Part shown: positions 13,528 to 23,475 of the stretch, piece by piece
Position numbering within the stretch: the stretch's first letter is position 1
Layout: each line of letters begins with the position of its first letter
From: Candidatus Saccharimonadota bacterium
GTDB lineage: Bacteria > Patescibacteriota > Gracilibacteria > BD1-5 > UBA2023
Direction of reading: 5' to 3'
Assembly: GCA_042852035.1 (NCBI GenBank)
Contig: BAAFHK010000002.1
Span: 180,001 to 212,000, forward strand
DNA: 32,000 bases
Made by a program: the position numbers and the translations under genes
The notes under the pieces: model-generated
What the model was told of the DNA's origin: nothing
The model's input: the letters and a program-made list of their open reading frames with translations, nothing else
The model's database searches: none

Positions 13528-13622
13528 ATGAATAAAAATTAGAGAATAAATTGATACGAAATACTCTATTTCTATTTCACTATCAATACTTTCATTGTAC
13601 AGAGTTTCTTTGTTTTTCCATT

Positions 13623-13650
13623 TTGGAAATATAGGCAATTTCTTTATAGT
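13623..13650 (+). promoter_or_regulatory. Candidate promoter (TTGGAA, 16-nt spacer, TATAGT) for the protease lipoprotein
   Basis: ttggaa at 13623-13628 and tatagt at 13645-13650, 10 nt before ATG 13661. Confidence 0.35.
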
Positions 13651-13660
13651 ATTTTTAATT

Positions 13661-14221
13661 ATGAAAACTATAGCTTTCATTATCGTTCTTTCTTTTCTTA
13701 CGGGATGTTCAATATTGCCTTTAAAACAAGGGAATCATCGAAATATAGTAGAACTATTTGCATGAGACATGAGAATTGGTTATGGACTAATGCTAGAAAG
13801 TGGTGCTTACATGACAGCCACGCATGTTCTAAATAATTGTAAGAAATTGAATTGTTATATTCATGGAAAGAATATCTGAAATAGGGTAATTAGTTTGGAT
13901 TGAGATATAAGTATTATAGGGGAAGATGTTAACCTCGAAGATGTAAAGCTTGCATGAGTAATAAGCTGAGAATCTCTCTATCTTCTTCGTCCAGAGAATT
14001 GAAGAATGAATCGATATACCACAAAAGTTACTTGAGTAAATATCGATTATATAGCGTATGATAGCCTCCTATCAGGATCATATTTAACTTGAGGAATTGA
14101 GATTGGTATATCGCTTCAAAAGGGTGATAGTGGACTCCCTGTTTGGAATGAATGAGACCAACTCGTCGGTGTTGTGAGTTCTACGGATGTGGTAGGAGGA
14201 AAAAGTTATATAGCACAATAA
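13661..14221 (+). CDS. Small trypsin-fold (S1-like) serine protease lipoprotein, 186 aa
   Basis: Lipobox 'FLTGC'. His motif 'MTATHVL'. Asp 'GDISIIG'. Ser motif 'KGDSGLPVW'. About 11 in-frame TGA, so absent from the track. TAA at 14219-14221. Confidence 0.6.
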
Positions 14222-14279: not shown

Positions 14280-16670
14280 TTAAGGATTTATTGGGGGTTG
14301 CTTAGTAGTTGTAGCTTGTGCTTGATCTCCCGACTTTTTCTCTTCAGGCTTAAAATAATCTTTATTAATGCTTGTTATGGCTTTTGCTACTTCTTCGGCA
14401 GCTTTTAGGGTCATAGAATTAGATGTCATAAGTGATTTTAGGAAATCATCCTTTGAGATAATTCATTTTTTTCATTCTACTTGTTTTTTAATTTCCTCAG
14501 TAGTATAGCTAATTGTATCCTCCCCAGCCTTATTCTTAATAGTTATAGGTGTTCCTCAATTGATGGTAACATTTACCGAATCAGAAGATCCTACTCTTCA
14601 AGAAAGGAATCAGGCTGAAGTATTATTTCCACCTTTCGATCAACCAGTAAGTGATTTAAAGGCACTCATTAACTCGCTGTCATTTGTGTTAATCTTTCAG
14701 TCTTTTGCATCATTTGTTCGATTCACTATTAGTTCAGCTTTTTCTTTGTCGTATCACATCTGCTGAAGGGCTTCCATTTTTTTATACTTGTTATCACCAT
14801 ATTGGTCATTTAAATGTTTTACAAGATCAGTGAATAATGTAGAATATTCTTGGTTTGTGCCTGAAGTTTTCCTGAGTATTTCTCAAGCTTCTTTTAAGGC
14901 AGGACTATTTATGTCATTCTTTGCATTCTTTAGGGTATCTCTAAATTTAACTTCATCAGCTGCTGATGTGACCTTATCGCCACCAAATAATTTTCCATAA
15001 TTTGATTTTTTAAAGTCCTCATCTCATTTACGTTGGAGCGCGATACCCGCATTATCAAGTACTTTATCTGCAGCTTTAAGACTGAGACCACCTGTACCAG
15101 GGATAGGTGTATATTTTGGTAAGTCCATCGCAAGTTTTCCAACACGTTTCCCCATTGCTTCAAATGGTTCAAATGCAGCCTTTGCAACCTTCGTAACATT
15201 CTTTGCTGCCATGAAGGCTGACCAAAGAAAAATAAGTGCAATAATATCGATGATAAGCGTTCAGAATACGCTTCATGTGGCTGATAATACACTATTTACA
15301 GTAGTGGCAGCCGCAGCATATTCTTTTATATCTGTAACTATTGATCCGTAGAATTTAAATGTAACTCATCCAAAGATTACTTCAGTTACACTCACATTTA
15401 TCGTTGAATTTGCTGATTCTGATCAATCATCTCTTTGTTCAACCTTCTTTTTGATAACGTTATCAGGAGATCCCATAATCCCAAGGATTTGACAGCCTTG
15501 ACCTCCTGGTTGCATGTAACTTTCTTCACATTTAACAGGAGTTGTTCCTAGACTTGGGCTTTGCAGAACAGATATGACAACTATACCAAAAGAGAGTGAT
15601 AATCCTACAAGTGCTGGTACAAAGGCGAGTCCTATAAATTCTTTAATTTCGAAGCTATCTCCATTTTCTTTTCCTCCAAAGAAACCATCTCACACAACAT
15701 ATCTGAGAGTAAGAAGGGGGGAGAAAATGGCATAAAACCAGAGTTTAATGGCTCTCATCATAAGCATAAATATGAGAGCAACGACCAAAAATCAGAATAT
15801 AACAAACATTACAACACCAAGGATTCATTTATTAACTATTCCACCTATGGACTGCATAACATCGGTTGTTGTGCTTAGTTTTTTTATTTCATTAAATTTA
15901 AAAAGACCATTTCCATAGATAAGAAGTGAACCGTAGATTCAGGAAGAGTTCGTAAGGATATCTTTTGGTTTTAAAAGTTTTGTTGGACTATACTGAGTTT
16001 GTCAGCTAACGACTGAATACGCAGGATCTGTAAAAAACTCATATTTATCAGGTATGGATTCTGTGTTCCACCAAGAATCAGGTGAGTTATTTCCCGCCAT
16101 ATACTTCTCCATCACTTCAGTTGGTATATTCATAACTGAAGCTGTGACAATTGTTGAGAGTGAAATGATGAATTGAACAAACCACCACGTCATCGGTACA
16201 AGTATAATTCCGAGAGCAAGACGAGGAAGAAGTTTTTTATATCAATAGTTCTGGGAATTAAATATCGTTGCCAGAGCTATGAATATGAGAAGTATCGCAT
16301 AGATAAAATAGGTGATATTTGACACAAGTACCCATAGATCATGAAGGATCGGTCTCAGGTTAAAAAGATCTCCCGTTGTCCAATCAGGTGACATGAGCCA
16401 TCCTGCGAGCATTATTGCAGGAGATACAACAAAAGATAAGAGTTCTAGTGCTATATTGAGTCAGCCTATTAATTTATTATACATTTTTACCATCTCTTCA
16501 TCTGAGGTACATTGCGGTTGATTTGCTCATCCACACTCTGTCGCAGCAAATGTAGGAGTTACGATTGAGACACTTGATAGTATATCCGTGCTCTTGGTAT
16601 CTATTTCGATAAAAAATCCTCCCAATATCGTGAGAGATAATATTATTGATGTAAGGATTTTTCGAGGCAT
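14280..16670 (-). CDS. 796-aa polytopic envelope protein. Topology, size and synteny suggest TrbL/VirB6/TcpH-like (inference only).
   Basis: Minus strand translated triplet by triplet. Open from ATG 16670 to TAA (complement of 14280-14282) with about 22 in-frame TGA. Contains track ORFs 16002-16193 and 15024-15212. Signal/anchor 'MPRKILTSIILSLTILGGFFI'. About 8 more TM helices (e.g. 'LLPRLALGIILVPMTWWFVQFIISLSTIV', 'ILGVVMFVIFGFLVVALIFMLMM', 'FIGLAFVPALVGLSLSFGIVVISVL'). Two loops carry Cys pairs ('ECGGANQPQC', 'KCEESYMQPGGQGC'). About 290-aa K/E/N/S-rich soluble C-terminus. Confidence 0.6.
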
Positions 16671-16725: not shown

Positions 16726-17568
16726 TTATTCTGTCAGAGACGCTTTATAGTCTGACTCTGTACTAATAAGATTCAATTTTTTTACAAGTTCTGTTCCAGA
16801 GTCAGGAAGTACTACCACTACTTGCTTTATTATAGCGTCTCTATTGTTAATAAGAGTATCGAGAATCTTTCTATTTTGAGCCTGAAGGATGCTATATCAG
16901 CGCTGGAATCTTTCAACATAAGCAAGATAGACTCGAGCCCTATTTTCATCATTTTTTGCTTGAACATAGGTATCGATGACTGAGTCGACCCCATCGTATT
17001 CAAATGCTTTATACTTTGTCTCCATGTTAGACTTTGCCTCTTCTGTAAGAGAACTACTTTCGCTAATTACCCTTTGAAGCTCATTTGCTTGTTCTCTGAG
17101 CATTGCCATTCTGTCCGTTGTTTTTGTATAGTATGATTTGAGTATTTCAATATGCTCATCAAGTGCTGTCATGCGATCATTTGACTCCTCAAGCATGGTT
17201 TTGATATCGATCTTGAGCACGTTTACATATGATTGTAAAGCGAGCATATTTGTTCCGATGAGCTTTGTTTGAGCGTCGCGAGGATTTGCAAGCGCTTCTG
17301 CAACGGTAATATTCTCATCGAGTCCATTACGAGCTGAAGTTTTCTTTATGGTTGACTTCTGCTCAGAGATAGAAAGAGAAGCAGCTGTCGCATAACTTCC
17401 CAAATAGACCATATTTGCTTGTGTAAAATTTCCATCATTTCCAGCAACTACCCTCGGAGAAATATATGGAGTTATATAACCCCAAGAAAGATGAAGAACG
17501 AGCGTGAAGAACAGCGTGAATATTAGTGTGTTTTTGGTGAAATCCTTGATTTCAGGGTGCATATGCAT
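16726..17568 (-). CDS. N-terminally anchored coiled-coil protein, 280 aa (TrbJ/VirB5-like by architecture and position; inference only)
   Basis: Track ORF 16897-17568 extended through TGA 16897-16899 to TAA (complement of 16726-16728). TM 'TLIFTLFFTLVLHLSWGYI', then long heptad-like helices ('DIKTMLEESNDRMTALDEHIEILKSYYTKTTDRMAMLREQANELQRVISE'). Confidence 0.6.
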
Positions 17569-17628
17569 ATGCTGAATCGGTCAATAAAGATAGTCGAGTA
17601 CTCTTATATTACACGTTTTTAGAAAAGA

Positions 17629-19944
17629 ATGCAAAAAATACGTACAATCTTCACATCACTTCTCTTATCTATTTTTGGATATTCTCTGGTTTTTCCAGTA
17701 TTTGCCTCGATAGAATTCGTAGATAAATATGATTATAGTGATTATATTGATAAAATCAATATCACTTCAAGCGATAATGAATTTCATTTCAAGAAACAGT
17801 TTGAAAGTGAAAGAACGACCTTTTTTCTACGTTTTAGTGACTACATTCCTGAATCTTCGGATGAAGTTGATGTTATTTGGCACATTGATGGAAAAGACTA
17901 TCATCGTCACCTTGATTGGGACAATGAAGAACAATATGGAGATACGACATTCCCTCTTGTTACAAAAGAAAGAAGAGAAATTAGTTTGACTTTGGTTTTT
18001 CACTGAATGAAGAGACCAAAATCAGTTGAGTTAGTCACGAGTAATCAATCGAGTCAATGAAAAAGAATCATATTTCGTAAAGAATATACGAGCGTACAAG
18101 CAAGTGAATCGAATAGCGTAAAAGTCATAAGTCGTGCAGAGTGGTGAGCTGATGAATCACTTCGATATATGTCGAGCTCAAGAATAGCACAAAAAAAACA
18201 TGAATGGGAAAATCGTGGAAGAACCCCAAAAATTATCGAGGAAACAGAGATTGAAAGAGCGAAACGAATCAATTCAGATAAGGAATATAATAGCCTTATA
18301 TCTTTAGATAATGATTCCAATACGGTAGTTCGTCTCACTCGTTATGAATGAGGTAATAAGCTTATCTTCCCAATCCGAACGGCAAAAAAAATAAGCCGAA
18401 TTTTTATCCACCATACTGCAGAAGGCCTTGAACAAGATGCTGATGATGCGAGCCTTATTCGAGCAATCTACCTTTACCATACAAAAACAAAATGATGGTG
18501 AGATATTGGATATAATTTTATTATTGGGCAACGATGAGTCATATATGAGTGAAGATCATGATGAGATTATGTCGAATGAGCTCATGTATATGCTAATAAT
18601 CTTTGAACCGTATGAATTTCTGTTATATGAAACTATCAGACACTTCATCTCAATCGTGACCAAAGGACCTGACTTGTTGATGCAATATCATATGTTGCCA
18701 AAAAATACGGAATTAATGTTGATGAAGAGACTTCGGGTATTATGACGTGTAAATGAGGGGAGAATTGTTCTTGGAAAAAAGTTACTACCCAACGACTTGC
18801 TTGACATAGAGATGCATGAAATACAAGTTGTCCCTGAGATAATATATATGATGAGCTCCCAGCCATCAGAAATGAAGTTGTATGAAAAGTATGAAAAGTA
18901 AAACCAGTATATAATCCAGAAGTTCAAAAGAAAGATCCACTTGATCCTGAAGATGAAATTCAGTTCATGATACAGGCAAGCGCTCAAAATATAACAAAGA
19001 TTTCTTCTACTATTTTGAATTCACAAAATATTAATCCCCCCGCAAAGAGTATCCCATCAAAGAGTATTAAGATCCGCCTTTCCTATCCTTCTGATACGCT
19101 GAGTTTCCAGTCAGCCACAGAGAACAAGGCTATTGTAAGAATGAATGCTAAAATTCTCCCATTTCAAAAAAATACGGAAGGAAATGTATTCCTCAAGGGA
19201 ACTAATGAAGTGGTATTTAAATCAGGAAATAAGGAGTACAGCTGAAAAACGCTTACCGTAAGTTCCGATGTTATTCGTATTTCTTCATGGAATAGAATCC
19301 CACTCTGGGATAGTTCACGACGATACAACGATAACCTCTTTCGTGGGAAAATCTATATTTCGAATCAAAATGGTAAGCTTCTTGTTGTAAATGAATTACC
19401 TATAGAAGATTATCTTCGCTGACTAGGAGAAGTTTCTGATACTGACCATACTGAAAAAATTAAAACGATTCTTGTTGCAGCTCGTACTTATGCGTATTTT
19501 TATATAAAACCAACAAATAGAAAGTATGATACAAAACTCTATGATGGATCAGATAATCCTGATGAGTTCCAAAAATATCTTGGTTATGGATATGAGATGC
19601 GATCACCAAATGTAGCAAAACAGGTAGAGGAAACAAAGTGACTGGTTATTACCTTTAAAGAAAAGCTCATCAAACCATGGTATTTCTCAAGTTCAGATGG
19701 AAATACTCGATCTTTTAAAGAATACTGCCAATCAAATAACCCAGGGAAAAGCTGCGAAGATATCCCATACCTTCAATCTGTATCAGATCCTGCAGGAATT
19801 GGACACCAGAGAAGTGGTCATTGAGTTGGTATCTCTTGAATCGGGGCAACCTATGCTGCAAATATGGGGAAGAACTTTAAACAAATTATCGGTTATTATC
19901 TCAATGGAACACTTATACGAAATATTGAATCAATCAAGGAATAG
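17629..19944 (+). CDS. Secreted/anchored peptidoglycan hydrolase fusion of N-acetylmuramoyl-L-alanine amidase (Amidase_2/PGRP) and SpoIID/LytB, 771 aa
   Basis: Frame 1 checked line by line, with 26 in-frame TGA. Joins track ORFs 17629-18006, 18169-18351 and 18967-19245. Signal 'MQKIRTIFTSLLLSIFGYSLVFPVFA'. Amidase_2 motifs are 'RAEW[G]A', 'IFIHHTAEG', 'K[G]W[G]DIGYNFIIGQR[G]VIYE[G]RS[G][G]' and 'LA[G]HRDA[G]NTSCP[G]D'. SpoIID motifs are 'LPIEDYLR[G]LGEVSD..ILVAARTYAYFY', 'PWYFSSSDGNTRS' and 'GH[G]VGIS[G]IGATYAANMGKNFKQIIGYYLNGT'. TAG at 19942-19944. Confidence 0.9.
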
Positions 19945-20047: not shown

Positions 20048-20593
20048 ATGTATCTTTCCGATAAAGACATCAAAAGTTCCATTCAGACTGGTGAAATTAC
20101 TATTACTGACTTTGATAATAATCGACTTCAACCAGCAAGTTATGATATACGGCTTGGATCGAAATTTCTTATCGTAAAAGATTATTCTGTGGTAAATATT
20201 GATCCAGTAAACAAAGTTCTTCCTGAATATGAAGAAATAACAGTAACTCCTGAAGATGGATTTATTCTGCGTCCTGGAGTTACAGTTCTTGGCACTTCAA
20301 TAGAAAAATTTTGATCGGAGAAATACCTTATTCAACTTTCAGGAAAGTCTTCACTTGCACGACTTGGTCTAATCGTACATAATACAGCTGGGCTTATTAA
20401 TCCTGGTCACTATCTCAATATTACCTTTGAGCTAGCAAATATGAATTCTATACCAATTATTCTTAGGCCTGGAATGGAAATTGCTCAGATTTTATTTTCT
20501 GAGATGAGTTCCCCACCTCAGAAAGACTACAGAAAAATATGAAGGTATGGTGAAGGGGAGGCAAATATGGTGAGCTATGTCCATAAAGATTAA
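20048..20593 (+). CDS. dcd: dCTP deaminase, 181 aa
   Basis: Track ORF 20048-20314 extended through 2 TGA. 'LQPASYDIRLG' and 'GKSSLARLGLIVHNTAGLINPGHYLNITFELANMN'. TAA at 20591-20593. Confidence 0.85.
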
Positions 20594-23475
20594 CTTGTCA
20601 AAGTGTGCATAAAAGCATATCTTTCTATTGGAAAATCTAGCATTATTACACTTAATATTTTCGGGCGTTCTTTTATGAAAGTATGATATTTTCATTTTGG
20701 ATCTGCTACCTCTTGTCTTATAAAATCCTCATAGATTTTTCGATCAAGGCGAGACATTCACATATAGAAGAAGTGTTCCAAGTTCGAAACCCTAAAAAAT
20801 GAAATATCTCATTTTTGTACCATGAGAAGTCTTCTTTCGACTCATCATGCTTCGGTTCGTAAATCTTCAAAATCCATATTCCACAAATTATATAATGCGG
20901 ATTTTTTATCTTTTAGCTGAGCGATAGTTTGTTCATTTGTGCTATCAAATTTTAGGAAATGATCTATTAGTAAGCGGAGTCATCATCAGATTTTTACTCT
21001 TAAGGTTGATAGGAGTCATTCAAAAACTTTTCCCTCAAAAGCAATTTTATTTTTTATGAGGAGTTTTACGAGTTTTTCTCATCAGTTTCCTCAAAGAATT
21101 CAAACAATCCTGTCATCCTCGATTAATCATCGAAGAAGTCATGCTATATTTCCTCATTGAGACTCCAATCAAAGAACTGCATCGAGTGCTTTTTCTCAAT
21201 TTGCTTGATTGAACAAGATTCTGAGTGAACTCGAGCTGTCAGGTTCTCACAATTTTTTTATATACCTTCATACCTCTTCATGACTTCATTCCCTGATAAA
21301 TGATATGGCCAATTCAGCTGTTTTTGAGTCTATAACCGCAGGAATCTCTGAGAATTTGAGCAACTTTACTCTTCCTATGAGTTTTTCAATTCATTTAATA
21401 CTCAGCGCATCTAGAGCTTTCTGGAGTCATGTCATTTCGTACTTTATATCATATAGTTCAAGAAATTCTGCCAATTCTTTAGTTGTAGAGGTGTTATTAA
21501 ATTCGGCTACCGCATCGAGTAATCACTGTGATGCAGTTTGTCAGCTAAATCGTTCAAGAAAATCTGGTCAATACCTATTTAATTGTTCTTTTATCTTTAT
21601 GGAATCTTGTTCTCATAAGATTTCATCAGCCTTTCATGCATATCATTTTATAAGCATTTTTCTGGCTTCTACTTTAGTGAGTTTTCCTTCGCCTTCTCGA
21701 GTCATAATTCGAATCTTCTCCGCAAGTTGTTTTATCCCATAGTTTCACAAAGATCACTTTACTTTATTGTGTGCATCTATAACTCTCTCGGCTTGAGCTG
21801 GAGTTAATCATTCTCTTTGAATAAGGAATTCTTTCCTAATAACATCTTCCTTTACTCATCTTTGCTTCGCTAGAGCAGCTATTTCATCATTAAGTCTGAG
21901 TGCGTTTGGAAGGTTATCTATTTTTGATGATCCCATTTTTTCTCACTTGTTGAGTCAGTGACTTATGCTTTTGAAGAGCACATCCTGAGTATCTTTCGTA
22001 TTAATTCATATTTTTTCAAGCGCAGGTCAAAGTGTGGTGAAGAGAATTCATATCTTTTCTATAAACTTTGCTTTTGCATCTGTCATTTTTTCCTGCGCAA
22101 GAGCTCGTTCTAATATGGTAGGAAGTTGAGAAAGAACACGTTTCATTCTCCCTAAAGCTTCTGCGATTTTCTTTGCTTTAATAAGCTTACCGAATTGTCC
22201 TACTCAGAGGGTAATGCTATCGAGAGTGTCAGCGAGGGTGGAGAGTCATTCAAGTGGCATATTCACATTTTCTCACGTCATATTTATTCCATTTGCCATA
22301 TTTCTTCATGAGTCTATAGCTCAAGCAATGCTTCATACAGTAGGGAGTATAGGAATAAGTTGTGATAAAAGAATAAGTATTTGTTGTATATTCATTCATT
22401 TCATTGATTCAGAAATATCTCATGAAATGAGTTTTCCTCATTCAAAATTCGGGGTATTTGAGAACAATCAATCTTTTCATCATTTTGCAGTTGAGCGTAT
22501 GGATCTTGCCTCGTTCTCATACGCTTGAAAATAAGAACTCGACTGATTATTTCAAAGAAGTACTTTTATTAGGTCAATCTTCTCTCAGTTTACTGTGACA
22601 TATCTATCAGGTGATCAGATTGGTATTGAAAGTTCACTGAGATTTCCTGCTTTTAGAAAATTTAAAAGAGTTTGTCTTCAGTTCAAGGGAGCCCTTTGAT
22701 TTAATTCATCAAGAAGCGCTCTTCAGACTATGTAGCTAAGATTTGCACTTGAAAGATTTCTTCCTATTCGCATCTCAGTTTGTATTTCATCGGGCAGAAG
22801 TTGTATTTTCCCAGCCAAGAGTGGGAGGATGATTTTTTCGTGTATATGAGTTCAAAACTTCTTATCGAGTCATTGAACGGAGAGTACATATTTCCCAAGA
22901 TTCTCTTTTTGATACTCAGATCCATCTGGAGCTTTGATGCGTTCCTCATGGAATGCTTTCGCAACAGATTCACTAAATCATAACTGTCATGAGACTCTTG
23001 CTTTAAGTATCTCTGAGAGATAGTAGGCTGAATCGGTAGAGGCAAATGGTCCAGCAATTTCTGTTTGCCTATTTTTTACAGAAAGAATTTGTTCTATTGT
23101 AACTTCCGAAAGATCGTCTACCGCTTCACGAGCAACTTGCATATACCTATCTTTCACATCATCCGGAATAGATCTATCTCATAGAAAAGAAAGTATGACC
23201 GCAAGAACGGGTGCAACTATCGCATCAATTTTTTGTTTATCAATTTTGAGTCATTCGAGAAGCCTCTCTGTTTTTCTTATGAGATCTTTTGATATTCCAT
23301 CCACTTTTGTTGTTATAGTTTCTGGGACTCATAGAGACTTTAGTCATTTGATTTGTTCTGTAATATTTCAGAGAGACCGTACTCAAAAATCCCGAGGTAA
23401 GAGAGGGGCGCTCTTCATTTCTCGGGTTGCTCTTATGCCATCGAGGGAATTTTCTAGAGATGCGGTGACGGACAT
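20590..23475 (-). CDS. 961-aa hypothetical protein, mostly helical by composition, with a central hydrophobic segment; no family recognised
   Basis: Minus strand translated triplet by triplet. Open from ATG 23475 to TAA (complement of 20590-20592). About 65 of about 86 Gly codons are TGA, so the standard track shows only antisense ORFs here. Central 'MNIQQILILLSQLIPILPTVGSIAGAIDSG'. Gly-rich helical repeats near the C-terminus ('GLLRGLIEDDRIVGILGGNGGEKLVKLL'). No Walker A motif seen. Confidence 0.75.

What the first reader, a model, noticed from the sequence alone, without database searches (positions are those of the whole stretch)
17629..19944. A muramoyl-alanine amidase and SpoIID fused in one 771-aa secreted protein
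Both domains are unambiguous (motifs are in the feature table). In sporulating Firmicutes, SpoIID-type lytic transglycosylases act on glycan strands whose stem peptides have first been removed by an amidase (the SpoIIP/SpoIID pair). Here the two sequential activities sit in one polypeptide. They follow an about 125-aa N-terminal domain of unknown function and are separated by an about 200-aa linker region. The gene is divergently arranged with the TrbJ/TrbL-like pair and shares a 60-bp control region (17569-17628). This fits either a dedicated wall-breaching enzyme for that apparatus (a VirB1-like role) or a weapon against host or prey peptidoglycan. The catalytic core is also the densest TGA patch in the window, with about 20 TGA between 18481 and 18900.
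Basis: partly seen in the sequence, partly recalled or inferred. Interest (0 to 1): 0.62.

Follow-up and report, generated by a model that had tools for sequence, protein, structure and literature searches.

The report
Fused amidase–SpoIID cell-wall hydrolase
This is a real gene (once UGA is read as glycine) for an exported enzyme that joins a peptide-stripping amidase to a SpoIID glycan cutter; it is a standard, near-universal but unstudied gene of Gracilibacteria and their relatives, and most likely remodels the cell's own wall.

Summary
The 771-aa ORF (17629-19944, +) is real under TGA=Gly (26 in-frame TGA). Both domains pass curated cut-offs. All catalytic residues are invariant in 88 orthologs (amidase H261, Y295, H393, T399, C401; SpoIID E601). 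A confident AlphaFold model matches SpoIID and PGRP-type amidase structures.

The "200-aa linker" is mostly folded. The true hinge is about 28 residues, and residues 479-591 are the beta-subdomain of the SpoIID module.

The fusion is not rare. It was found in 276 of 301 genomes of the class (175 of 188 genera), including standard-code Peregrinibacteria/Peribacteria, and in other Patescibacteria classes. Public databases already annotate it, and this scan has met it before on other DNA.

The genome makes its own peptidoglycan and has no other Amidase_2, Amidase_3 or SpoIID.

The link to the two upstream membrane proteins is real across the order. The 280-aa coiled-coil protein is the hub. I found no support for calling them TrbJ/TrbL. 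T4SS ATPases lie on another contig and persist in genomes lacking the fusion.

Best reading: a single-chain amidase-then-glycan-cleavage autolysin for the cell's own wall (about 0.5). Host-wall attack (about 0.2) and apparatus-associated wall breaching (about 0.15) are not excluded.

The parts
17629..19944 (+). Whole gene: 771-aa exported amidase-SpoIID fusion (table 25, 26 TGA=Gly, stop TAG)
17629..17706 (+). aa 1-26: N-terminal hydrophobic helix. It is a Sec signal peptide with a VFA|S-type site, or an uncleaved membrane anchor.
   Evidence: sequence; helix 2-26 in the model; cleavage is inferred
17710..18075 (+). aa 28-149: all-beta N-terminal accessory domain. It is conserved only within the window's own family and absent in family f2 orthologs.
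18121..18978 (+). aa 165-450: PGRP/T7-lysozyme-type zinc amidase module. It begins at 'RAEWGAD' and carries an inserted subdomain at about 183-252. The Pfam core is aa 253-404 (18385-18840). Zn ligands are H261, H393 and C401; catalytic residues are Y295 and T399.
18979..19062 (+). aa 451-478: the only real inter-enzyme hinge (pLDDT below 50 at 453-465). In other lineages it is replaced by 300-600 aa of Ig-like repeats.
19402..19941 (+). aa 592-771: SpoIID catalytic domain. The catalytic Glu E601 (19429-19431) is invariant in 88 orthologs.
17569..17628 (.). 60-bp divergent intergenic spacer shared with the 280-aa gene. It is 45-88 bp in orthologous loci, with poorly conserved sequence and no promoter signal above chance.
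16726..17568 (-). 280-aa membrane-anchored coiled-coil protein (P0122). It is the syntenic hub: divergent from the fusion in families f1 and f2, and in an operon with the 796-aa gene in f1 and f3.
14280..16670 (-). 796-aa multi-pass membrane protein (P0123). The family is class-wide but lies next to the fusion only in family f1. It has no Pfam or PDB match.

Best explanation
The gene encodes an exported, two-enzyme peptidoglycan hydrolase that works on the organism's own wall. The PGRP-type zinc amidase cuts the MurNAc-L-Ala bond and strips stem peptides. The SpoIID module is tethered about 28 residues away and then cleaves the resulting denuded glycan strand, as a lytic transglycosylase or muramidase. 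Fusing the two makes peptide removal and glycan removal obligatorily coupled and local. This gives a single-chain equivalent of the SpoIIP/SpoIID pair, or of chlamydial AmiA followed by SpoIID. In these reduced genomes it most likely serves septal splitting, daughter-cell separation and wall turnover. In this order of Gracilibacteria it is probably positioned or controlled at the membrane by the divergently encoded 280-aa coiled-coil protein.

Shown: the gene, both folds, intact active sites, the phyletic distribution and the synteny. Inferred: enzyme activities, order of action, own-wall substrate and the partner's role.
For: Both domains pass curated cut-offs. The catalytic residues H261, Y295, H393, T399, C401 and E601 are invariant in 88 orthologs and align with PGRP and SpoIID structures. 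The model has pLDDT 89.5 and matches 5I1T and 4RWR (E=6e-12 and 1e-8) plus PGRP and endolysin amidases.

The genome encodes MraY and three PBP transpeptidases. This gene holds its only SpoIID domain and its only Amidase_2 domain, and the genome has no Amidase_3.

The fusion is present in 276 of 301 genomes of the class, 233 of 253 high-quality ones and 175 of 188 genera. It also occurs as one frame in other classes of the phylum. Amidase_3 is present in only 25 of 301 class genomes. The single family-f1 genome that has it (G225) is the only f1 genome lacking the fusion.

In distant lineages the neighbours are wall or envelope genes: FtsW/RodA in L007, GT4 glycosyltransferases in L016 and L018, and a polysaccharide cluster in L012. 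The evolutionary rate is ordinary for the locus.

Precedent: Waddlia SpoIID is septal and digests glycan denuded by AmiA in a reduced genome (PMC6635528). Groundwater Gracilibacteria encode complete peptidoglycan synthesis (PMC11452946).
Against: About 8% of high-quality genomes in the class lack the fusion yet keep PBPs and FtsW/RodA, so it is not indispensable for a walled cell. All these organisms are presumed epibionts or predators, so near-universal conservation fits a host-directed enzyme equally well. The order-wide synteny with two membrane proteins of unknown function suggests a dedicated complex rather than a free autolysin. Larger orthologs carry Ig-like spacer arrays typical of surface 'reach' proteins, and they lack known septum- or wall-targeting modules such as SPOR or LysM. 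Other hydrolase families (M23, NlpC/P60, CHAP, glucosaminidase, SLT) were not surveyed in this genome.
Confidence: 0.5

Rival explanations
1. Host- or prey-directed weapon. The exported enzyme digests the peptidoglycan of the bacterium on which the epibiotic or predatory Gracilibacterium feeds, opening the host wall at the contact site.
For: Cultivated relatives (Vampirococcus, Absconditicoccus) are predatory epibionts, and the authors propose that secreted peptidoglycan hydrolases degrade the host wall (PMC8080830). The protein has an export signal. Accessory beta/Ig-like domains are the fastest-evolving parts and vary in number between lineages, as expected for host-adapted reach or binding modules. 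Some walled lineages do without the enzyme.
Against: No immunity-like partner is recognisable, and there is no link to a secretion system. The catalytic cores evolve at an ordinary rate. The enzyme is the only Amidase_2/Amidase_3-type amidase in a genome that builds its own wall. No viral or plasmid weapon-like relatives carry both modules.
Confidence: 0.2
2. Apparatus-associated wall breaching (VirB1-like or DMP-like). The fusion, the 280-aa coiled-coil protein and the 796-aa polytopic membrane protein form one envelope machine, and the hydrolase opens the wall locally for it. That machine could be the dispersed T4SS of Gracilibacteria, whose VirB6 and VirB1 have not been found.
For: The trio is ancestral to the order. 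Family f1 keeps all three genes. Family f2 keeps the divergent pair of the 280-aa gene and the fusion. Family f3 keeps the operon of the 280-aa and 796-aa genes. PMC12102498 reports that VirB6 is undetectable and T4SS genes are dispersed in Gracilibacteria, and that other glycosidases may replace VirB1. Monoderm T4SSs use two-domain hydrolases encoded near VirB6-like genes, for example PrgH and PrgK in pCF10. T4SS pilin genes lie near the fusion in two unrelated lineages, L008 and L015.
Against: The T4SS identity of the neighbours is unsupported. There is no Pfam hit even at E<=10. A precomputed PF19590 hit on one distant homolog was not reproduced. No PDB fold match was found. hhalign against PrgH and PrgL gives probabilities of 2.4% and 0.6%, and PrgK against the fusion gives 0.1%. 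The VirB4-like and T4CP-like genes are on another contig. Outside f1 the 796-aa gene lies 16-365 kb away. Of the 20 listed fusion-negative genomes, 19 keep the 796-aa protein, and 5 of 5 tested keep VirB4. Pilins are very abundant (17 matches in about 8 loci in this genome, none within 100 kb), so their proximity elsewhere is near the background rate.
Confidence: 0.15
3. LytB-like reading. The SpoIID/LytB module is mainly a non-catalytic enhancer or targeting module for the amidase, like B. subtilis LytB (CwbA) for LytC, so the protein is functionally only an amidase.
For: The family is named for both SpoIID and LytB. The score against the sporulation-SpoIID equivalog TIGR02870 is far below its cut-off (76.7 against 234.75). 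Public annotation calls the protein simply an amidase.
Against: The catalytic Glu (E601) and many surrounding residues are invariant in 88 orthologs. E601 aligns with the catalytic Glu region of 4RWR and 5I1T. The SpoIID catalytic domain is the best-conserved part of the protein, at 56-68% identity.
Confidence: 0.08

Closest known systems
SpoIIP + SpoIID of the DMP engulfment machine (Bacillus subtilis, Clostridioides difficile; PDB 4RWR, 5I1T)
   Same: The chemistry has the same logic: an amidase removes stem peptides, then SpoIID cleaves the denuded glycan. The SpoIID fold and catalytic Glu are conserved. A membrane-protein partner is encoded nearby, which is analogous in role to SpoIIM.
   Different: There is one polypeptide instead of two. 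The amidase is Amidase_2/PGRP-type, not SpoIIP-type. No SpoIIM was detected among the neighbours. The organism does not sporulate. The protein scores far below the spore_II_D equivalog cut-off.
Chlamydiales AmiA followed by SpoIID at the division septum (Waddlia chondrophila; PMC6635528)
   Same: It is a non-sporulation SpoIID in a reduced genome that acts after an amidase on the cell's own septal peptidoglycan.
   Different: The chlamydial proteins are separate, AmiA is Amidase_3-type, and the bacteria are diderm. Localisation of the Gracilibacteria protein is unknown.
Bifunctional autolysin Atl/AtlE of staphylococci (Amidase_2 + repeats + glucosaminidase)
   Same: It is a single exported polypeptide that joins an Amidase_2 amidase to a glycan-cleaving enzyme through non-catalytic repeats, and it is used for daughter-cell separation (my knowledge of the family, not tested here).
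   Different: The glycan-cleaving partner here is SpoIID rather than a GH73 glucosaminidase. No GW or R repeats are present. Proteolytic processing is unknown.
B. subtilis LytC (amidase) with LytB/CwbA (SpoIID/LytB-domain modifier)
   Same: An amidase is functionally paired with a SpoIID/LytB-domain protein in vegetative wall turnover.
   Different: These are separate proteins, LytC is Amidase_3-type, both carry CWB2 repeats, and LytB is regarded as an enhancer.
Two-domain VirB1-like hydrolases of monoderm T4SSs (PrgK of pCF10, TraG of pIP501, CwlT of ICEBs1)
   Same: They are two wall-cutting activities in one exported protein, encoded near a polytopic membrane protein.
   Different: The domain families differ (SLT/lysozyme + CHAP/NlpC-P60). 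hhalign against PrgK gives a probability of 0.1%. The gene is not in a T4SS cluster, and no plasmid holds the fusion.

Membership tests
Amidase_2 / PGRP-T7 lysozyme zinc amidases (PF01510) | Profile score above the curated cut-off | tested here: met
   49.3 bits against 26. Eight distant orthologs score 62-75 bits.
Amidase_2 / PGRP-T7 lysozyme zinc amidases (PF01510) | Zn ligands His-His-Cys plus the catalytic Tyr and Thr/Lys position | tested here: met
   H261, H393 and C401, together with Y295 and T399, are invariant in 88 sequences. The motifs HHT, GYNF and GHRD..TSCPG align with PGRPs.
Amidase_2 / PGRP-T7 lysozyme zinc amidases (PF01510) | Fold | tested here: met
   Foldseek hits PGRP-LB, PGRP-SA, endolysins 6SRT and 7F5I, and T7 lysozyme 1LBA, with TMt 0.65-0.76.
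Amidase_2 / PGRP-T7 lysozyme zinc amidases (PF01510) | MurNAc-L-Ala amidase activity | not testable with these tools
   This needs an enzyme assay on sacculi.
SpoIID/LytB (PF08486, TIGR02669) | Profile scores above the curated cut-offs | tested here: met
   PF08486 scores 46.5 against 23. TIGR02669 scores 100.9 against 83.3.
SpoIID/LytB (PF08486, TIGR02669) | Catalytic glutamate | tested here: met
   E601 in 'GEVS' aligns with 'SEM' of 4RWR and 'GEM' of 5I1T. It is invariant in 88 orthologs.
SpoIID/LytB (PF08486, TIGR02669) | Fold | tested here: met
   5I1T: E=6.3e-12, with 284 of 285 residues aligned and TMt 0.55. 4RWR: E=1.4e-8.
Sporulation SpoIID proper (TIGR02870 equivalog) | Equivalog-level score | tested here: not met
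   76.7 bits against a cut-off of 234.75. The protein belongs to the domain family but is not an ortholog of sporulation SpoIID.
T4SS VirB1-like hydrolase | Encoded within, or co-inherited with, a T4SS gene cluster (VirB4, VirB6, T4CP) | tested here: not met
   The VirB4-like and T4CP-like genes lie on contig C3, while the window is on C2. All 5 tested fusion-negative genomes keep VirB4.
T4SS VirB1-like hydrolase | Homology to known VirB1, PrgK, TraG or CwlT domains (SLT/lysozyme, CHAP/NlpC) | tested here: not met
   hhalign of A3 against PrgK gives a probability of 0.1%. Pfam finds only Amidase_2 and SpoIID.
TrbL/VirB6 (label for the 796-aa neighbour) | Profile or fold similarity to VirB6, TrbL or PrgH | tested here: inconclusive
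No Pfam hit at E<=10 in 5 members. The PF19590 hit on one distant homolog was not reproduced. Foldseek against the PDB gives a best E of 0.57. hhalign against PrgH gives a probability of 2.4%.
TrbJ/VirB5 (label for the 280-aa neighbour) | Profile similarity | tested here: not met
   Only generic coiled-coil noise was found in Pfam. hhalign against PrgL gives a probability of 0.6%.
DMP engulfment machine | SpoIIP-type amidase and SpoIIM scaffold present | tested here: not met
   The amidase is Amidase_2-type. The neighbours have no SpoIIM or SpoIIP Pfam hits. A genome-wide search for SpoIIM was not run.

The most novel reading that the evidence does not exclude
The order-wide trio is one membrane-anchored wall-cutting machine. 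It comprises the 796-aa polytopic membrane protein, the 280-aa coiled-coil hub and the amidase-SpoIID fusion. It would be a non-sporulation analogue of the SpoIIM-SpoIIP-SpoIID engulfment complex. Epibiotic Gracilibacteria would use it at the host contact site, or as the missing VirB6/VirB1 parts of their dispersed type IV secretion system.
Probability: 0.15. Interest if true: 0.7.

Novelty: new variant of a known kind. Interest (0 to 1): 0.36.

Why it matters
Patescibacteria (the CPR) make up a large share of bacterial diversity, have minimal genomes and still build peptidoglycan. How they split and remodel their walls is unknown. In this class the usual AmiA/B/C-type amidases are mostly missing (Amidase_3 in 25 of 301 genomes), and a single fused amidase-SpoIID protein is nearly universal. 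It is therefore a strong candidate for the core wall-splitting enzyme of the lineage, and it is a natural single-chain version of the two-step SpoIIP/SpoIID chemistry. This makes the coupling of peptide stripping and glycan cleavage directly testable with one recombinant protein. If the enzyme instead acts on host walls, it would be a conserved tool of CPR parasitism. Either outcome is useful, but the architecture itself is common and already annotated, so the surprise is moderate.

Tried and rejected
(1) TrbJ/TrbL identity of the neighbours. Pfam scans of five orthologs each at E<=10, a rescan of distant homologs, AlphaFold plus Foldseek against the PDB for the 796-aa protein, and hhalign against pCF10 PrgH and PrgL all gave no support.

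(2) Homology of the fusion to a monoderm VirB1-like hydrolase (PrgK): none.

(3) Plasmid or phage origin. No plasmid record covers both domains, with 0 of 54 hits at 80% coverage or more. Viral structure matches hit the amidase domain only.

(4) T4SS-pilin proximity as evidence for a T4SS link. Pilins lie near the fusion in L008 and L015, but this genome has 17 pilin matches in about 8 loci and none within 100 kb of the gene. I judged the proximity to be near background.

(5) Complementary distribution with Amidase_3. It holds only for G225, and the other fusion-negative genomes lack Amidase_3 too.

(6) Co-loss of the fusion with peptidoglycan synthesis. Rejected: fusion-negative genomes keep PBPs and FtsW/RodA.

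(7) Accelerated evolution as a sign of host interaction. The fusion is not an outlier among its syntenic neighbours.

(8) Promoter or operator signal in the 60-bp spacer. There is nothing above chance, and conservation is poor.

(9) TGA patch as a special feature. It is significant within this gene (Fisher p=0.0009) but not conserved in orthologs.

(10) Read-level or expression evidence.

(11) Fold assignment of the N-terminal beta-domain. It does not appear among the top PDB hits of the whole-chain search.

(12) I could not census the Amidase_2+SpoIID architecture outside Patescibacteria.
Full report
**Observation**

Under table 11 the region 17629-19944 breaks into short frames. With TGA read as glycine (table 25) it is one 771-codon ORF with 26 in-frame TGA, ending in TAG. 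Every long gene in the window behaves the same way, so this is a UGA-recoded genome.

TGA=Gly rather than Trp is supported directly. In six orthologs TGA and GGN alternate at the same conserved glycine columns, and some columns are TGA in all six sequences, for example G173 in 'EWGAD' and G598 in 'YLRGLGE'. In the alignments to solved PGRPs these codons fall on conserved glycines, such as the 'YEGRG' motif.

Pfam finds Amidase_2 (aa 253-404, 49.3 bits, cut-off 26) and SpoIID (aa 581-676, 46.5 bits, cut-off 23). NCBIfam finds the SpoIID_LytB domain model above its cut-off (100.9 against 83.3), but the sporulation-SpoIID equivalog scores far below its own (76.7 against 234.75). The central observation is therefore confirmed.

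**Anatomy**

I built an AlphaFold2 model from an 88-sequence alignment. It is confident, with mean pLDDT 89.5. It shows:
- a hydrophobic N-terminal helix (aa 2-26), which is a signal peptide with a VFA|S-like site or an anchor;
- an all-beta accessory domain (aa 28-149);
- a short disordered hinge (aa 154-161);
- the amidase module (about aa 165-450), which starts at the PGRP-typical 'RAEWGAD' and carries an inserted subdomain at about aa 183-252;
- a second hinge, disordered at aa 453-465;
- a folded beta-domain (aa 479-591) that runs straight into the SpoIID catalytic domain (aa 592-771).

Foldseek against the PDB returns C. difficile and B. anthracis SpoIID first. For 5I1T the E-value is 6e-12, with 284 of 285 target residues aligned. 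Next come PGRPs, amidase endolysins, T7 lysozyme and AmpD. The true inter-enzyme hinge is about 28 residues. The '125-aa N-terminal domain' is simply the distance to the first TGA.

**Active sites**

Across the 88 orthologs the following residues are invariant: the amidase zinc ligands H261, H393 and C401, the catalytic Y295 and T399, and the SpoIID catalytic E601. The motifs align residue for residue with PGRPs and with 4RWR and 5I1T. Neither refutation condition about lost catalytic residues applies.

**TGA patch**

There are 17 in-frame TGA (26 in any frame) in 18481-18900. That equals, and does not exceed, the densest stretch of the minus-strand gene 20590-23475. Within the gene the enrichment is significant: 17 of 23 Gly codons in aa 289-422 are TGA, against 9 of 33 elsewhere (Fisher p=0.0009). 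However, orthologs use TGA for most glycines throughout (48 of 57, 37 of 53 and 36 of 45), and some family members hardly use it at all. The patch is a glycine-rich catalytic core plus lineage-specific codon drift.

**How common is the fusion?**

A word-indexed search found 622 relatives. The best 120 almost all carry both Pfam domains, are about 750-770 aa long, and are named 'N-acetylmuramoyl-L-alanine amidase [Candidatus Gracilibacteria]' or, at JGI, 'N-acetylmuramoyl-L-alanine amidase/Stage II sporulation protein'.

In a whole-genome search of 301 species of the same class, 276 have it. That is 233 of 253 high-quality genomes and 175 of 188 genera. Many of these genomes have no TGA inside the match, so they use the standard code, and they carry both halves in one 840-1,300-aa frame.

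A GTDB-wide scan confirmed 592 relatives. The best 80 are all Gracilibacteria, Peribacteria, Peregrinibacteria, Altimarinota or 'Patescibacteria group' MAGs, and nearly all match both domains.

In a 301-genome sample of the phylum, 118 genomes match. Several families of other classes hold the full fusion in frames of 1,150-1,414 aa, other families hold SpoIID alone, and many hold nothing. I extracted 14 of these loci. In all of them the fusion is a single ORF (671-1,306 aa), and the eight tested pass both Pfam cut-offs. The length differences come from the region between the enzymes, which carries up to four Ig-like repeats (N_BRCA1_IG, NPCBM_assoc). No SPOR, LysM, SH3 or PG_binding modules were found.

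No plasmid in PLSDB and no viral predicted structure carries both modules. I found no paper that mentions SpoIID together with the CPR. The scan itself has noted the same architecture before on other DNA. One follow-up on another Gracilibacteria genome reached the same conclusion. Another note reports a large actinobacterial family with CWB2 repeats, which I could not test.

The architecture is therefore common and annotated but uncharacterised.

**Whose wall?**

The window's genome is 1.30 Mb in 3 contigs and about 91% complete. It encodes MraY-family transferases and three PBP transpeptidases, so it builds peptidoglycan. This gene contains the genome's only SpoIID domain and its only Amidase_2 domain, and the genome has no Amidase_3.

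Amidase_3 is rare in the class, at 25 of 301 genomes. Within the window's family, the single genome that has it (G225) is also the only one lacking the fusion. This is a suggestive displacement, but it is a single case.

Other fusion-negative lineages (genera g17 and g72, among others) lack Amidase_3 yet keep PBPs and FtsW/RodA. The enzyme can therefore be dispensed with in a walled cell.

The fusion's divergence from syntenic orthologs (54% and 48% identity) lies within the range of its neighbours, from holA at 43/37 to thyA at 93/91. The SpoIID catalytic domain is the most conserved part (56-68%), and the N-domain is the least (27-41%).

The closest experimental precedent is Waddlia chondrophila. 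There a septal SpoIID homolog digests glycan strands denuded by AmiA in a reduced, non-sporulating genome (PMC6635528).

**Neighbours**

The two upstream genes encode a 280-aa protein with one N-terminal TM helix and a long coiled coil, and a 796-aa protein with about eight TM helices.

In four orthologous loci at 38-51% identity the same trio recurs, even where the outer flanks are unrelated. I combined the coordinates from three genome searches and found:
- In family f1 the trio is kept: 14 of the 16 other sampled genomes show it on one contig.
- In family f2 the 280-aa gene is still divergent from the fusion (G022, G201, G243, G117, G271, G168, G069), while the 796-aa gene sits 27-177 kb away. 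In L017 a DDE transposase occupies its place.
- In family f3 (g17) the fusion is lost, but the operon of the 280-aa and 796-aa genes remains (G219, G089, G266).

The small coiled-coil protein is thus the hub, and the trio is probably ancestral to the order.

The 796-aa family is itself class-wide (277 of 301 genomes), but outside f1 it lies 16-365 kb from the fusion. Of the 20 listed fusion-negative genomes, 19 keep it. In other orders and classes the fusion's neighbours are different: FtsW/RodA, GT4 glycosyltransferases, a polysaccharide cluster, and Hsp20 with a solute-binding protein.

**Are the neighbours T4SS parts?**

The 2025 survey of Patescibacteria T4SSs states three things (PMC12102498). 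VirB6 is undetectable in Gracilibacteria. T4SS genes are dispersed there. Other glycosidases might replace VirB1.
- Pfam scans of five orthologs of each protein at E<=10 give no TrbL, TrbJ or VirB hits.
- A precomputed PF19590 hit on one distant homolog is not reproduced.
- An AlphaFold model of the 796-aa protein (pLDDT 75.6) has no PDB match better than E=0.57.
- hhalign against pCF10 PrgH, against PrgL (for the 280-aa family) and against PrgK (for the fusion) gives probabilities of 2.4%, 0.6% and 0.1%.
- The genome's T4CP-like and VirB4-like genes sit together on another contig, flanking a SpoIIE-type phosphatase.
- All five fusion-negative genomes tested keep VirB4 at 39-67% identity.
- T4SS pilin genes lie close to the fusion in two unrelated lineages (L008, L015). 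This genome, however, has 17 pilin matches in about 8 loci and none within 100 kb of the gene, so the association is near background.

I could not reproduce it with the comparisons available, and no solved monoderm VirB6 structure was recovered. I rate that label inconclusive and the TrbJ label unsupported.

**Mechanism**

My best reading, at about 0.5, is a single-chain, two-step autolysin for the cell's own wall. The amidase strips stem peptides, and the tethered SpoIID cleaves the denuded glycan. Peptide removal and glycan removal are thereby coupled in space, which suits septal splitting and turnover in a genome that lacks AmiA/B/C-type amidases. In this order the enzyme is probably positioned or controlled by the divergently encoded membrane coiled-coil protein.

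The gene, the folds, the active sites, the distribution and the synteny are shown. Activities, order of action, substrate origin and partner role are inferred.

Three rivals remain:
- Host-wall attack (about 0.2). It fits the predatory lifestyle of cultivated relatives (PMC8080830) and the variable Ig-like 'reach' modules.
- An apparatus-associated wall-breaching role within the trio (about 0.15).
- A LytB-like enhancer role for the SpoIID module (about 0.08). The invariant E601 argues against it.

**Novelty and verdict**

The chemistry and both domain families are known. Bifunctional exported autolysins are known (Atl, and the PrgK/CwlT type). The protein family is already in public databases and was met before by this scan. 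The contribution here is a documented picture: the Amidase_2-SpoIID fusion is the near-universal, usually sole amidase-type hydrolase of a whole CPR class, and it has an order-level link to a coiled-coil membrane protein. I class it as a new variant of a known kind, with moderate interest (0.36).

Noticed in passing
G000 contig C3, locus L005:7778-14068: The genome's T4CP-like (998 aa; T4SS-DNA_transf) and VirB4-like (684 aa; TraG P-loop/AAA_10) genes flank a 409-aa SpoIIE-type PP2C phosphatase. No recognisable T4SS membrane components lie beside them. This fits the 'dispersed T4SS' reported for Gracilibacteria.
   Followed up: partly
G000 genome-wide (e.g. C2:17667-19022, C1:651914-652612, C3:157432-158166): There are 17 matches to the T4SS_pilin family (PF18895) in about 8 loci of a 1.3-Mb genome, several of them as tandem arrays. 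None is within 100 kb of the fusion gene.
   Followed up: partly
L008:11247-18786 (genome G017, same class, standard code): Directly downstream of the fusion ortholog lie three genes: a 151-aa 3-TM protein, a 1,258-aa protein with an N-terminal T4SS_pilin domain followed by seven PKD repeats, and a further 1,101-aa protein. These look like giant pilin-fusion surface proteins.
   Followed up: no
L017:5402-6580 (genome G022, same order): A DDE transposase sits exactly where the 796-aa membrane-protein gene lies in the window. In that genome the 796-aa gene is 177 kb away, which suggests how the trio was broken in family f2.
   Followed up: no
window 17620-17640 and orthologous spacers (alignment A5): The string [A/T]TGCAAAAA recurs at the 3' edge of the divergent spacer in five of six loci. 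In the window and in L001 it contains the start codon (ATG CAA AAA). In L003 and L004 it lies about 27 nt upstream of the start. It could be chance in AT-rich DNA or a conserved signal.
   Followed up: no
window 13595-14221 (+); L001:4030-4617; L002:3322-3897: A small (about 190-aa) trypsin-fold lipoprotein gene converges on the 796-aa gene and is syntenic in two orthologous loci.
   Followed up: no
genomes G133, G182, G261, G281 versus G207, G249, G213 (family f1): Within one family the fusion gene carries from 0-2 to 27 or more in-frame TGA codons. TGA-Gly usage therefore swings widely between closely related genera.
   Followed up: partly
protein P0226 (distant homolog of the 796-aa protein): The database lists a precomputed PF19590 hit for this protein, but a direct hmmscan at E<=1 does not reproduce it. 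It is probably a faint sub-threshold hit.
   Followed up: yes
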